Assembly: GCA_049322255.1 (NCBI GenBank) | Contig: JBMORE010000054.1 | Coordinates: 124,001-165,360, forward strand | Length of the DNA: 41,360 bases | Source: Myxococcota bacterium | GTDB lineage: Bacteria; Myxococcota; Myxococcia; Myxococcales; Myxococcaceae | Reading direction: 5' to 3' | In this document: positions 19,516-22,155 of the stretch, one piece after another | Position numbering within the stretch: the first letter of the stretch is position 1 | How the letters are laid out: each line of letters begins with the position of its first letter | Translations under genes and position numbers: made by a program | The notes under the pieces: model-generated | The model's input: only the letters and a program-made list of their open reading frames with translations | Database searches by the model: none | What the model was told of the DNA's origin: nothing

Positions 19516-19560
19516 GCGCCCACCGGGCCGTCACGCCGGTGGGCGTTCGTCTTTCTCGGG
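19516..19560 (+). terminator. Putative intrinsic terminator between convergent genes
   Basis: Stem CGCCCACCGG (19517-19526)/CCGGTGGGCG (19536-19545) followed by TTCGTCTTTC. Confidence 0.55.
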
Positions 19561-22155
19561 CTGAGGAGGGCTCGTCACGGGGAGCTCCTCCCGGAGCGAC
19601 TCCGCCGTGTATGCCCCCTTGATGCTCCAGGGGTAGACGCGCTCCAGCCCGTGAATCTCCTGCTCGCCCACGAAGCTCGGGCCCCCGAGCGCGTACACAC
19701 CAGGAAGGAGCGCGTCCTTGTCGAGGACGAGCTGAAACGCCTTCCGGGCCGCGGTGACCTCGATCTTCCCCCTCTCCTTGTCCAAGATCCTCACGGTGAC
19801 GATGGTGCCTGGAATGCCCAGCGCGTCCTTGAGCTCCTTGCCACCGTTCGCACCAGGTAGCACTGAGGCTCCCCGTTCCTCAGCCTGCTTGCGCGCCTGC
19901 GCCTGCTGCTCGCCGGTCATCGGCGCGGAGCCTTTGTCGGGGTCGATCCACGCGAAGAGCTGTTCCTTGAGCACCTCCGGCAACCCCTCGAGGTTCACCG
20001 TCTGCGACTTTTGGGAATTGGCGAAGTTGTAGGTCAGAAGCGCCAGGTCGCTGGTCGTGCAAATGTACTGCTTCCCGGTCGCTGAGCCCTCGAGCTTGAC
20101 CAGATCGTCGAAGAGGTTGGTGAGCTGGCCCTTCTTGCTGCGCTCCTTGGCGATGGCCTTGGCGTCGGGCTGGCGGACATCGTTGTTCGGCGCCATGCCA
20201 ATGAGCCGGGAGAAGCTGTAGTCACCGCGCCAAACGGTCAGCTTCCTGTCCCCTTCCTTGCGGACCGCCTCCTCGAAAGACGAGAAGCGTAAGGGCGAGG
20301 TTTCGAACATCATCTTCTCATAGCGATAACGAAACCCCTGTGGGTTGTCGGGCGAAACACGCGACGGGTCTTTCAGCTTCTCGATCAACCCCCTGCCGAG
20401 CTCGAACAGCTTCGCCCGCTGCGCCACCACCTGATTGGCCAGCTCGGAGTAACCACCCTCGCGCAGCCCCTTTTCGAGGTACCAGAGCTCTAGATCCATC
20501 TGCGAGTGCTTGCTGATGGCGGAGGAGACGGCGGTGCCTTTGGCGCCGCTGATTTGGAAGATGGCCACCGGGTCGAGCTTGCTCACATCGGCGAGCTCTG
20601 TCAGCAGCTTGGCCACCTCGGGCTCGGGTGCGATCCGGTACGCGGCGTCGGCCTTGCGCGCGCTTTGTTCGTCGCGGACCACCACGTTCTTTCCGGCGGA
20701 AGGGTCTGCGACGACCTTGTCGTAGAGCGCACGGGTCGACTCGGTGATTTTTTTGAGCACCTCGGTGCCCGATTCCTTTCCCAGTTGGAGTATTCGCCTG
20801 GAAAGGACGTAGTGCTCGAGCTGAGCGAGGGGAACGACCTCGTTTCCAACCGCGATCCAGGGCCGACCGGTCGGGTCATACAGCATGCCATCGCTGCCCA
20901 AATCGAATGGGTTTCCGTCGAGCGTGATGGGCTTGTCCGGCGACTTGTCGATGGCCTTGATGTCTACCCGCGCGAGGTATCCGTCTTTGCTTTCGAGGCG
21001 CGAAGACGAGAGGAACGCCTTGGAACGAGCGACGCCCTTGGCGACCTCGGTGCGCCACTCCTCCGGGCTCATGCTGATGTCCCGATTCTGGTTCTCGAAG
21101 ATCGCCGGCGGCAAATCGTACTCGGCGAGAATTCGGTTCATCACGATTCGCGAAGTGCGGCCGTTCGAATCTCCAAAGGGGTGGAGGGCGACGAAGCGCC
21201 GCTGAAACTTCGCGGCCGCGGCGATTGGGTCGGCGTTTGGCGGCGCGAGGTCGGCCTTGAGCTCGGTGAGCAAGCACTCGAGCCGTGGCTTGACCTCCTC
21301 GGGTGGAGGGTACTCAATCAATGCCCTGCCGCCGCCGTCGGCGGTGTGGGTGAGCTGAGAGACTTTGACCCCGGATTCCTTCAAGTTTTCCAATTCGCGC
21401 GCGCTGTAGTCGTCGGGACGCGCGAACTGCCGGCCGTTGCGAATCTCGCCGCCTCTGTCCCAGCGCCCTCCGCGGCCAACCATCGCGGCCACCCGCAGCA
21501 GCCTGGCCTTGATTCCCTGGTCCAGCGCATGAATCAGCCGGTTGACTTCCGTCAGCACCCCGAGGTCGAGCTTCTCGAGGAATTTGCCCTTCGGAATCTC
21601 CCGCAAGTAAGTGTGCGCGCGGACGAACCCTCTCCACGCATCGTCTCCGTAAGCACGGCTGAAATCGCCCTCGGAGCGGCGACCTGTGTTGACGAAGCTC
21701 GCGGCCAGCACCATTCCGGCACGCCCGCTCTCGTAGTCTCCCTCGAGGCGGGCGGCCTCCAGCGGGCCCAACTTTAGTCGCTCGAGGGTGAGCTCGTCGG
21801 GTCGGAAAATCCGTTTTTCGGAGAAGATGTTGCCCAGCCGTTCGTTGACTCCATCCTCGAGCTTGAGAACCTCGGCATCAAAGGGAGCCGAGAACTCCTG
21901 CCACTTGTTCGCCTGGATGGCTGCGTTCAGCTGAAAGGCGGTTTCGTCCAGCTGGCTGCTCGTCGGGGAATCGATGCCCTTGGCTTTGAGAAGGTCTCGT
22001 GCAAACGACTGGAGCAGCCACGAGTCTTTCTGGAGGGTCTCGATGGTCTTACCGTTCTTGGTGAGGAGCGCTCCCAACGTCACAGGGAGCGGTTCCTGGG
22101 CCGGCTTGGCGGGAACGGAAGGCACAGGAACAGAGCCGACGCGGCGTGGGCTCAT
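19531..22155 (-). CDS. Fic-domain protein with C-terminal ADP-ribosyltransferase-like domain
   Basis: Fic motif HPFGDSNGRTSR (21148-21183); C-terminal VWRGD / YICTTSD / GEQEIHGLERVYPWSIKGAY match the R-S-E ART pattern. Fic call strong, ART call motif-based. Confidence 0.85.
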   Translation of the reverse strand: MSPRRVGSVPVPSVPAKPAQEPLPVTLGALLTKNGKTIETLQKDSWLLQSFARDLLKAKGIDSPTSSQLDETAFQLNAAIQANKWQEFSAPFDAEVLKLEDGVNERLGNIFSEKRIFRPDELTLERLKLGPLEAARLEGDYESGRAGMVLAASFVNTGRRSEGDFSRAYGDDAWRGFVRAHTYLREIPKGKFLEKLDLGVLTEVNRLIHALDQGIKARLLRVAAMVGRGGRWDRGGEIRNGRQFARPDDYSARELENLKESGVKVSQLTHTADGGGRALIEYPPPEEVKPRLECLLTELKADLAPPNADPIAAAAKFQRRFVALHPFGDSNGRTSRIVMNRILAEYDLPPAIFENQNRDISMSPEEWRTEVAKGVARSKAFLSSSRLESKDGYLARVDIKAIDKSPDKPITLDGNPFDLGSDGMLYDPTGRPWIAVGNEVVPLAQLEHYVLSRRILQLGKESGTEVLKKITESTRALYDKVVADPSAGKNVVVRDEQSARKADAAYRIAPEPEVAKLLTELADVSKLDPVAIFQISGAKGTAVSSAISKHSQMDLELWYLEKGLREGGYSELANQVVAQRAKLFELGRGLIEKLKDPSRVSPDNPQGFRYRYEKMMFETSPLRFSSFEEAVRKEGDRKLTVWRGDYSFSRLIGMAPNNDVRQPDAKAIAKERSKKGQLTNLFDDLVKLEGSATGKQYICTTSDLALLTYNFANSQKSQTVNLEGLPEVLKEQLFAWIDPDKGSAPMTGEQQAQARKQAEERGASVLPGANGGKELKDALGIPGTIVTVRILDKERGKIEVTAARKAFQLVLDKDALLPGVYALGGPSFVGEQEIHGLERVYPWSIKGAYTAESLREELPVTSPPQPEKDERPPA

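What the first reader, a model, noticed from the sequence alone, without database searches (positions are those of the whole stretch)
19531..22155. Fic plus ADP-ribosyltransferase double-warhead protein
Seen: Fic motif HPFGDSNGRTSR (G-to-S variant of HxFx[D/E]GNGRxxR) at 21148-21183; in the C-terminal ~240 aa, in correct order, KLTVWRGD (20221-20244), QYICTTSD (20047-20070) and GEQEIHGLERVYPWSIKGAY (EQE at 19657-19665). Known: cholera/LT/pertussis-type ARTs use LYRAD, YVSTS and EQEVSALGGIPYSQIYGWY; ExE ARTs typically modify arginine; Fic domains transfer AMP/UMP/phosphocholine. There is a long insert between the S and ExE motifs, a Pro-rich low-complexity N-terminus and no Sec signal. Inference: a bifunctional toxin/effector installing two different modifications (predation, competition or anti-phage defence). 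I do not know of a characterised protein with this architecture.
Basis: partly seen in the sequence, partly recalled or inferred. Interest (0 to 1): 0.85.

Follow-up and report, generated by a model that had tools for sequence, protein, structure and literature searches.

The report
Two-enzyme Fic-ART toxin with zinc plug
A myxobacterial gene joins a Fic domain to a domain predicted to have the ADP-ribosyltransferase fold, likely making an exported two-enzyme toxin, and the small overlapping gene beside it encodes a likely zinc-binding protein predicted to plug the Fic active site, which would be an undescribed kind of antitoxin.

Summary
Observation confirmed. ORF 19531-22155(-) encodes 874 aa with every motif at the stated place. 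The Fic domain is real. The C-terminal domain has no sequence match to any library, but folds confidently (pLDDT 91.6) as an ADP-ribosyltransferase: best match TreX, Z 10.2. Across 64 family proteins E831 is kept in 64, E833 in 63, R643 in 61, Fic His in 60. Fic, middle and ART move as one cassette, including into giant multi-toxin proteins. New here: the overlapping upstream gene (22152-22385) encodes a 77-aa Cys/His protein that lies beside the cassette in 15 of 16 loci of the DSNGR clade and 0 of 7 others. It is predicted to dock on the Fic target strand and catalytic loop (score 0.65, best control 0.00). Best reading: an exported two-enzyme toxin with a Fic-site immunity protein; route (type III likely), targets and activity are untested. 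Anti-phage defence is not supported. A coupled SidE-like relay is not excluded but unlikely.

The parts
19531..22155 (-). Fic-middle-ART gene, 874 aa (P0001)
   Evidence: AlphaFold2 model pLDDT 82.9, pTM 0.79
22152..22385 (-). 77-aa partner gene (P0083): CxxC...CxxxH likely zinc ribbon with an acidic loop; its stop overlaps the large gene's start (ATGA); predicted Fic-site plug
   Evidence: no Pfam, NCBIfam, PADLOC or PHROG match
22398..22402 (-). GGAGG, likely ribosome-binding site of the partner gene
   Evidence: sequence
22163..22168 (-). AGGGAG, likely ribosome-binding site of the large gene, 7 nt before the ATG
   Evidence: sequence
22081..22155 (-). Disordered P/S/T-rich N-terminus (residues 1-25), candidate type III export signal (inferred)
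   Evidence: pLDDT under 50
21826..22080 (-). Small helical module (residues 26-110), poorly conserved in the wide family, duplicated in P0029, P0038, P0043
21001..21825 (-). Fic domain with N-terminal lobe (residues 111-385)
   Evidence: AnkX Z 16.7, FICD Z 16.5, tied
21646..21678 (-). Conserved R-x3-D-F-x3-Y-G motif of the Fic N-lobe (residues 160-170)
   Evidence: invariant in 19 of 19 rows; Y169 touches the partner in the model
21412..21435 (-). Fic flap / target-dock strand (residues 241-248), predicted to pair with partner strand 42-47
21148..21183 (-). Fic motif HPFGDSNGRTSR (His325; Ser330 in place of Gly)
   Evidence: Ser in 35 and Gly in 19 of 64
20251..21000 (-). Middle region (residues 386-635): beta hairpins and helical bundles, no named family
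20482..20514 (-). Conserved S-x3-Q-x-D-L-E-x-W helix just before the ART domain; role unknown
   Evidence: D554 in 64 of 64, Q552 61, E556 61, W558 60
19576..20250 (-). ART-fold domain (residues 636-860), R-S/T-ExE type
20221..20244 (-). Strand 1 motif KLTVWRGD with R643
20047..20070 (-). Strand 2 motif QYICTTSD with T701 (YxSTS-like in 21 of 64 relatives, which have S at 699)
19765..20013 (-). Variable insert in the ART domain (residues 715-797)
19657..19665 (-). E831-Q832-E833, predicted catalytic ExE

Best explanation
The large gene encodes one protein with a Fic domain and a domain predicted to have the ADP-ribosyltransferase fold, likely an exported two-enzyme toxin, and the overlapping upstream gene encodes a small likely zinc-binding protein predicted to plug the Fic active site and so likely protect the producer. 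Shown: the ORFs, motifs, conservation, gene linkage and cassette mobility. Predicted: both folds and the partner's docking. Inferred mechanism: the pair is made together (ATGA overlap). In the producer the partner lays strand 42-47 on the Fic target dock, puts Asp47 beside His325 where an acceptor hydroxyl would sit, and lays its acidic loop (30-35) on the phosphate-binding loop (328-333). On export, here likely through a type III apparatus reading the disordered N-terminus, the partner stays behind. In the target cell the ART domain uses NAD+ to ADP-ribosylate a protein arginine (ExE type) and the Fic domain transfers a nucleotide-derived group to a Ser/Thr/Tyr. The ART half is the more constant warhead; as the partner is not predicted to touch it, it is likely held off in the producer in another way (latent until activated in the target, or aimed at a target that the producer lacks).
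For: ART fold; R643 falls on TreX R15 if the reported range start (22 to 9) is ungapped, and the E-x-E opens a strand as in TreX (PMC11606950 sections 7-8; inference, residue pairs not shown). Catalytic residues conserved across about 25-65% identity. Effector context: the cassette sits inside 2900-5500 aa proteins with lipase, Scabin-like, JAB and M6-peptidase domains, and behind DUF4781 or apparent signal peptides in others. No neighbour other than the small gene is shared between the window and 12 related loci. The own genome has two SctV-type and two SctJ-type genes, with SctS/T/U beside one SctV, and no TssC, sheath or VirB4 match (99.6% complete). Partner: in the locus in 15 of 16 DSNGR-clade loci and 3 of 3 truncated loci, in four different arrangements, 0 of 7 in the other clade; pairwise identities track the large protein (Spearman 0.63, 14 pairs). 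Complex score 0.65 against best control 0.00, a mark reached by 116 of 157 solved and 2 of 215 mismatched pairs; runs agree in at least 64% of contacts, partner pLDDT at least 77. Lone copies of the partner in 7 of 12 genomes that carry it fit orphan immunity genes.
Against: No activity, secretion or expression data. The Fic flap binds extended peptides without regard to sequence (PMC3667792 passages), so the predicted pose could be that of a substrate or chaperone. The 15/16 versus 0/7 split is a single clade boundary (tree), so one event, and the mirror correlation is confounded by kinship. Seven loci of the other clade have no partner although six keep the Fic histidine, so a partner is not always needed. 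The Fic motif is broken in 7 of 64 proteins, so two activities are not required in every lineage. Nothing found explains how the producer survives the ART half. SctV-family genes are in 14 of 14 carrier genomes but are common in the phylum and include flagellar FlhA, so they do not prove the route; P/S/T-rich starts occur in 2% of ORFs.
Confidence: 0.55

Rival explanations
1. One warhead plus a handle: the ART domain is the toxin, and the Fic domain serves mainly to dock the target or an activator, or to regulate the ART by self-modification. The small protein is then a chaperone or safety catch on that docking site.
For: EQE is kept in 63 of 64 proteins while the Fic motif is broken in 7 of 64, five of which keep R643; the Fic fold is retained even when its motif is gone. 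One partner on the Fic dock would then suffice to silence the whole protein. pTM 0.79 suggests one packed body.
Against: 57 of 64 keep a complete H-x3-[DE]-x-N-G-R motif, with D329, N331, R333 and R336 at 59-62 of 64, which argues for selected catalysis. P0053 keeps the Fic motif but lost R643.
Confidence: 0.2
2. Coupled relay, like SidE with a Fic domain in place of the phosphodiesterase: the ART puts ADP-ribose on an arginine, and an AnkX-like Fic domain cuts its pyrophosphate, releases AMP and transfers the phosphoribosyl part to a Ser/Thr/Tyr. The small protein, with invariant Arg26, could be the tag that is transferred.
For: The halves were never found apart in long proteins (64 of 68 span both; the other four are two N-terminally cut proteins, one with a diverged C-terminus and one remnant). 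AnkX gives the longest structural match, 134-417 onto 12-321, spanning its CMP-binding lobe, and AnkX transfers the non-nucleotide half of its donor (PMC8605245 passages). Arg26 is kept in 41 of 41 partners and ExE enzymes modify arginine.
Against: AnkX and the AMP transferase FICD tie in Z (16.7 v 16.5); the AnkX CMP-binding residues could not be mapped. Fic-dead, EQE-intact members exist. The partner docks on the acceptor strand and Arg26 is not in the predicted interface. The partner is missing from a whole clade and occurs alone in 7 genomes.
Confidence: 0.1
3. An intracellular toxin-antitoxin or anti-phage module: the partner is a FicA-like antitoxin, and the large protein arrests its own cell when the partner is lost or a phage triggers it.
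For: Small gene upstream of and overlapping a Fic gene is the FicTA layout (PMC3667792 passages); 6 of 18 linked loci have it upstream on the same strand; patchy spread (8 of 401 genomes); PADLOC Fic models match the Fic core.
Against: PADLOC matches cover only about 70 residues of Fic core. In 8 of 18 linked loci the partner is on the opposite strand. The cassette is embedded in giant multi-toxin proteins and behind apparent signal peptides. No defence genes were seen among the neighbours scanned, and no copy in viral contigs, phages or plasmids.
Confidence: 0.1
4. The small protein is the Fic domain's own substrate, or does not bind at all and is linked for another reason.
For: It occupies the target dock in the model; the flap is a sticky edge strand.
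Against: The residue beside His325 is Asp in 37 of 41 and never Ser, Thr or Tyr; the only nearby hydroxyl, position 33, is Ser or Thr in 22 of 41. Unrelated proteins of like size scored 0.00. Linkage persists through four gene arrangements.
Confidence: 0.05

Closest known systems
TreX/TreTu Rhs toxins (R-S-ExE ART; PDB 8s2m, 7zhl; PMC11606950)
   Same: Best structural match of the ART domain (Z 10.2, 106 of 128 residues); R, S/T and ExE in the same strands; interbacterial use in TreX.
   Different: No sequence match; an 80-residue insert; fused to Fic and helical domains, not to Rhs; the adjacent small gene is not predicted to block the ART site, whereas TriX does.
Pertussis/EcPlt, Scabin, CARDS, heat-labile toxin ART domains
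   Same: Same fold, Z 6.0-8.8.
   Different: No B subunit or signal peptide; host is an environmental myxobacterium; targets unknown.
AnkX (Legionella Fic phosphocholine transferase) and FICD
   Same: Top Fic-domain structural matches (Z 16.7 and 16.5); the AnkX match extends over its CMP-binding lobe; non-Gly residue before NGR is allowed in the wider motif HxFx(D/E)(A/G)N(G/K)R.
   Different: Ser at that place; no ankyrin repeats; carries an ART domain; donor nucleotide unknown.
FicTA modules (VbhT-VbhA) and alpha-inh inhibition (PMC3667792)
   Same: Small gene next to a Fic gene, predicted to obstruct the active site with acidic residues.
   Different: The known antitoxin is helical and inserts one Glu from an (S/T)xxxE(G/N) helix; this partner is a likely zinc ribbon predicted to cover the target dock by beta-strand pairing as well as the phosphate loop.
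CccR (Yersinia T6SS Fic effector that AMPylates FtsZ; PMC9755527 abstract)
   Same: Precedent for a secreted antibacterial Fic domain.
   Different: CccR's second domain binds DNA; no T6SS marker was found in this genome.
SidE/SdeA (mART plus phosphodiesterase; PMC8605245 passages)
   Same: An ART joined to a His-dependent phosphotransfer domain in one effector.
   Different: The second domain here is Fic, not PDE; coupling is not shown; no ubiquitin in a bacterial target.
Two-activity effectors such as ExoS/ExoT (GAP plus ART; recalled) and IbpA (Fic plus cysteine protease; PDB title)
   Same: Two enzymatic domains in one delivered protein.
   Different: The Fic plus ART pairing and the partner were not found in the literature searches.

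Membership tests
Fic (Fido) family | Profile match above the curated cut-off | tested here: met
   PF02661 39.8 bits v cut-off 24
Fic (Fido) family | Helical Fic fold with flap | tested here: met
   23 Fic-fold entries head the list, Z 7.2-16.7
Canonical AMP-transferring Fic | HxFx(D/E)GNGRxxR | tested here: inconclusive
   All residues present except the first Gly, which is Ser (35 of 64; Gly in 19); effect on donor unknown
Canonical AMP-transferring Fic | AMP transfer from ATP | not testable with these tools
   needs assay
AnkX-type phosphocholine transferase | CMP-binding lobe with D28, R30, Y41, R44 | tested here: inconclusive
   Structural range covers the lobe but residue pairs are not shown and profile searches did not return AnkX for the lobe regions
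AnkX-type phosphocholine transferase | Ankyrin repeats, family cut-off | tested here: not met
   NF043028 17 bits v 1400; no ankyrin Pfam
R-S-E (cholera-like) ADP-ribosyltransferases | Split beta-sheet ART fold | tested here: met
   pLDDT 91.6; TreX Z 10.2, EcPltA 8.8, Scabin 8.7
R-S-E (cholera-like) ADP-ribosyltransferases | R in strand 1, S/T in strand 2, catalytic E opening strand 5, conserved | tested here: met
   R643 61, T/S701 64, E833 63 (plus 1 D) of 64; positions on strands; superposition of side chains not viewable
R-S-E (cholera-like) ADP-ribosyltransferases | NAD+-dependent transfer; arginine acceptor for ExE | not testable with these tools
   ExE rule from PMC11606950 section 7
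Class I FicA antitoxin (for the partner) | Inhibitory helix with (S/T)xxxE(G/N) | tested here: not met
   The window copy reads T25-x3-E29-G30, but T/S is in only 18 of 41 rows; the family is a Cys/His ribbon and docks by a strand
Immunity protein / antitoxin (function) | Adjacent gene, binds the toxin active site | tested here: met
   Linkage; binding predicted only
Immunity protein / antitoxin (function) | Neutralises toxicity | not testable with these tools
   needs co-expression
Type III secretion substrate | Export apparatus in the genome and disordered S/T/P-rich N-terminus | tested here: inconclusive
   Both present but neither is specific
Known anti-phage systems (PADLOC: SoFic, PDC-S04, PDC-S24) | Match over the model's length | tested here: not met
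   About 70 residues of Fic core only
SidE-type phosphoribosyl ligase | PDE domain | tested here: not met
   Second catalytic domain is Fic; working like SidE remains untested

The most novel reading that the evidence does not exclude
The fixed Fic-ART cassette is a coupled ligase, a second invention of SidE chemistry: the ExE ART loads ADP-ribose on an arginine (perhaps invariant Arg26 of the small zinc-ribbon protein) and the AnkX-like Fic domain cleaves it, releasing AMP and welding a phosphoribosyl-linked tag onto target hydroxyls in prey cells.
Probability: 0.1. Interest if true: 0.95.

Novelty: new variant of a known kind. Interest (0 to 1): 0.74.

Why it matters
Myxobacteria kill prey on contact through a Tad pilus and a needle-less type III apparatus whose effectors are spoken of only as potential in PMC12075869 (passages seen). 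This is a concrete candidate with two predicted catalytic sites and a cognate inhibitor gene, so it can be cloned safely and tested at once. It adds an ART family invisible to Pfam, NCBIfam and PHROGs, a Fic plus ART architecture not found in six literature searches, and what would be a new fold and mode of Fic inhibition (target-dock plug). The same cassette seems to be re-routed between type III, contractile-injection and Sec delivery in different lineages.

Tried and rejected
Sequence searches for the ART domain found nothing in Pfam, NCBIfam, PADLOC, PHROGs or PDB sequences. Foldseek against viral models gave no match at E 0.001. The ESM Atlas gave only leads: unnamed phage clusters 0.91-0.92, DUF4765 0.90, and FRG, DRAT and ART clusters at TM under 0.5; it did not complete for the partner. 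No relative in viral contigs (38 pattern hits, none confirmed), phages or plasmids. No RNA holder listed, which says nothing on expression. No promoter-like site, and terminator-like sites at chance level. The eCIS-core search of the own genome rang nowhere, controls included, so it is uninformative. The ART search of the 7 partner-only genomes had no positive control in that call. Attempts to read off an AnkX residue alignment failed. The middle region was not folded alone (both jobs spent), so its fold is barely tested. A stand-alone ART form of 140-560 aa was not searched for separately; the short hits look like fragments but their ends were not checked. The careful tree did not finish; the quick tree is used. 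Four look-ups of earlier scan findings returned nothing. Rejected: chance motif string (conservation and fold); frameshift or fusion artefact (64 intact relatives); partner as an ART-site immunity protein (no contacts listed there, though unlisted residues are uncertain).
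Full report
1. Observation. The minus-strand ORF 19531-22155 encodes 874 aa, and each motif lies at the coordinates given. Pfam finds only Fic (E 8e-10). The window lies in a 4.85 Mb, 99.6% complete genome whose relatives' loci are named Myxococcota. A full-length search gave 30 proteins including the query, 40-65% identical over 72-100% of the length. A search of 1.84 billion cluster representatives with the last 259 residues gave 55 hits, and a profile search of longer proteins gave 40, 38 with a Fic annotation; the other two are an N-terminally cut protein and one with a decayed Fic motif.

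2. The ART domain. Residues 616-874 folded alone with a 58-row alignment reach pLDDT 91.6, pTM 0.85. Foldseek ranked pertussis S1 and TreX first but only at E 0.02-0.2. The exhaustive aligner gave 21 of 48161 chains at Z 5 or more, and all 50 rows listed are ART-superfamily entries (five labels recalled): TreX Z 10.2 (rmsd 2.9, 106 of 128), EcPltA 8.8, Scabin 8.7, CARDS 7.8, TccC3 7.4, pertussis S1 7.3. In TreX the triad is R15 at the end of strand 1, S54 in strand 2 and E100/E102 opening strand 5, and ExE is typical of arginine-modifying toxins (PMC11606950, abstract and sections 7-8 read). Here R643, T701 and E831/E833 sit in the matching strands; the side-chain superposition could not be viewed. 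Of 68 family proteins of 590 aa or more, 64 span Fic to EQE; among them E831 64, Q832 64, E833 63 (one D), T/S701 64, R643 61. Some of the 64 are cluster mates (P0038/P0109; P0048/P0110/P0111). The insert 715-797 varies most in length and sequence.

3. The Fic domain. The whole model (pLDDT 82.9, pTM 0.79) matches AnkX (Z 16.7, 134-417 onto 12-321) and FICD (Z 16.5) equally. His325 is kept in 60 of 64; position 330 is Ser in 35 and Gly in 19. The motif is broken in 7 of 64, all with EQE intact and five with R643. So the ART triad is the more constant, and the Fic fold persists without catalysis in some lineages. Family-specific motifs flank the sites: R160-x3-D-F-x3-Y169-G (19 of 19) and S548-x3-Q-x-D554-L-E-x-W.

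4. The cassette is a mobile warhead. Fic, middle region and ART travel together behind different fronts: short disordered P/S/T-rich starts (most), DUF4781 (4 of 38 proteins), apparent Sec signal peptides (L011, L012, P0074; judged by eye and hydropathy), and giant proteins of 2000-5500 aa. L030 strings a lipase, a Scabin-like ART and (by my reading) deaminase-like and JAB-like domains before the cassette; L006 has JAB domains; P0034 an M6 peptidase motif. Five of 14 carrier genomes have sheath genes, four of them a pair about 3.6 kb apart (those of L001, L002, L004, L006), which suggests contractile injection systems there (inference). The own genome has no sheath, TssC or VirB4 match (controls rang) but two SctV-type genes, one with SctS/T/U and a nearby SctJ-type gene, one with TPR and FHA/YscD genes. 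The cassette was found in 8 of 401 phylum genomes (a floor), in no viral contig, phage or plasmid, and shares no neighbour with the window except the partner (12 loci).

5. The partner, missed at first reading. ORF 22152-22385 (-) encodes 77 aa; its stop overlaps the large gene's ATG, and both have likely ribosome-binding sites. In 41 aligned relatives C12, C15, R26, G30, D34, Y36, C38 and F44 are invariant, H42, E29, E32 in 40, D47 in 37: a likely zinc ribbon with an acidic loop, of no known family. One search examined 27 cassette loci; dropping L021 (same contig as L007) leaves 26. Of 16 with the DSNGR motif, 15 have the partner in the locus, and the genome of the sixteenth (L004, G401, unpublished; this one claim rests on it) has it elsewhere. 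Three loci cut before the Fic motif all have it. None of 7 loci of the other clade has it, and five of their genomes were searched whole without a match. The 18 linked cases show four layouts: upstream same strand 6, downstream same strand 4, downstream convergent 7, 3 kb away 1. L030 and L031 are near-identical. The split follows one branch of the quick tree (support 100; 23 rows, four fragments or duplicates left out), so it counts once; partner and toxin identities correlate (Spearman 0.63, 14 pairs), with kinship as a confound. In the 401-genome sample the partner is in 12 genomes, adjacent to the cassette in 5 and alone in 7.

6. Predicted complex. Residues 24-865 with the partner scored 0.65 against a best control of 0.00; that mark was reached by 116 of 157 solved and 2 of 215 mismatched pairs (counts rough, as my own alignments were used); runs agree in at least 64% of contacts, partner pLDDT at least 77. 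The interface is the Fic site: flap 241-248 with partner 42-47, His325 with Asp47, loop 328-333 with partner 30-35, and Y169/A173. No ART residue is listed. The flap edge is the target dock that registers the acceptor hydroxyl, known inhibitors instead insert a Glu from a helix, and the flap binds peptides without regard to sequence (PMC3667792, passages). An Asp in the acceptor place and an acidic loop on the phosphate nest read best as a pseudo-substrate plug; this is a model, not a measurement.

7. Mechanism and odds. Best (0.55): exported two-enzyme toxin with a Fic-site immunity protein, likely type III here. Open point: what holds the ART off in the producer; TreX needs thioredoxin for activity (abstract), so activation in the target has precedent. 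Rivals: ART-only warhead with Fic as handle or regulator (0.2); coupled SidE-like relay (0.1), built on AnkX's flipped donor and SidE chemistry (PMC8605245, passages) but contradicted by Fic-dead members and by the partner's pose; intracellular TA or anti-phage (0.1); partner as substrate or bystander (0.05).

8. Novelty. Searches: Fic domain + ADP-ribosyltransferase + Myxococcota, 0 papers; five further searches listed 2, 11, 6, 6 and 8 papers, seen as listings and abstract starts, none naming this fusion or a zinc-ribbon Fic inhibitor there. The library lacks most subscription papers, and no supplements were opened; domain-architecture tables in supplements of polymorphic-toxin surveys could list it. 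Other papers seen: PMC12075869 (passages: effectors of the Kil/type III machinery are spoken of as potential), PMC4454073 and PMC7228754 (passages), PMC4177925 (part 1 of 3), PMC9755527 (abstract). Both domains belong to known superfamilies and two-activity effectors are known, so this is a new variant of a known kind: new architecture, new ART family, likely new inhibitor fold. Interest 0.74.

Noticed in passing
L004:30-16550, L006:60-10565, L030:1-8616, P0031, P0033, P0034: Giant (2000-5500 aa) proteins that string several enzyme domains (lipase, Scabin-like ART, JAB, M6 peptidase by Pfam; an adenosine-deaminase-like domain by my reading) with the Fic-ART cassette; the genomes of L004 and L006 carry paired sheath genes. 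Likely an undescribed class of contractile-injection cargo. L004 lies in unpublished G401.
   Followed up: partly
L013-L020: Lone copies of the small partner gene with no Fic-ART gene nearby or found in the genome; neighbours are unrelated (urease cluster in two, DUF5953/DUF6310 pair 5 kb away in L014). G066 has both a linked and a lone copy.
   Followed up: partly
L011:5569-8454, L012:7524-10571, L036:5479-8568, P0074: Members of the partner-less clade that seem to begin with a Sec signal peptide; export before folding might remove the need for an inhibitor.
   Followed up: partly
P0069 residues 465-553: An eCIS-core protein of 2216 aa holds only the last 90 residues of this ART domain, with the ExE motif lost: a remnant.
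   Followed up: partly
L023:2478-3050: An AbiEii-like nucleotidyltransferase gene lies directly upstream of a partner-less, DUF4781-bearing Fic-ART gene.
   Followed up: no
window 18799-19500 (+): 233-aa ORF converging on the Fic-ART gene, no family match, not found in 12 related loci.
   Followed up: partly
window 13335-18399 (-): Lysine fermentation cluster (lysine 5,6-aminomutase subunits, zinc dehydrogenase); ordinary.
   Followed up: no
window 34207-37121 (+): Aldehyde dehydrogenase with what read as microcompartment shell genes (labels recalled from sequence).
   Followed up: no
window 40504-41253 (+): Weak GIY-YIG nuclease match (E 5e-4, under cut-off) in a lower-GC stretch (0.59-0.60) at the contig end.
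   Followed up: no
L024 (G000:C114) and L025 (G000:C2): Two type III export loci in the own genome: one SctV with three TPR genes and an FHA/YscD gene, one with SctS/T/U/V.
   Followed up: partly
P0029, P0038, P0043: The small N-terminal helical module (residues 26-110) is present twice in these relatives.
   Followed up: no
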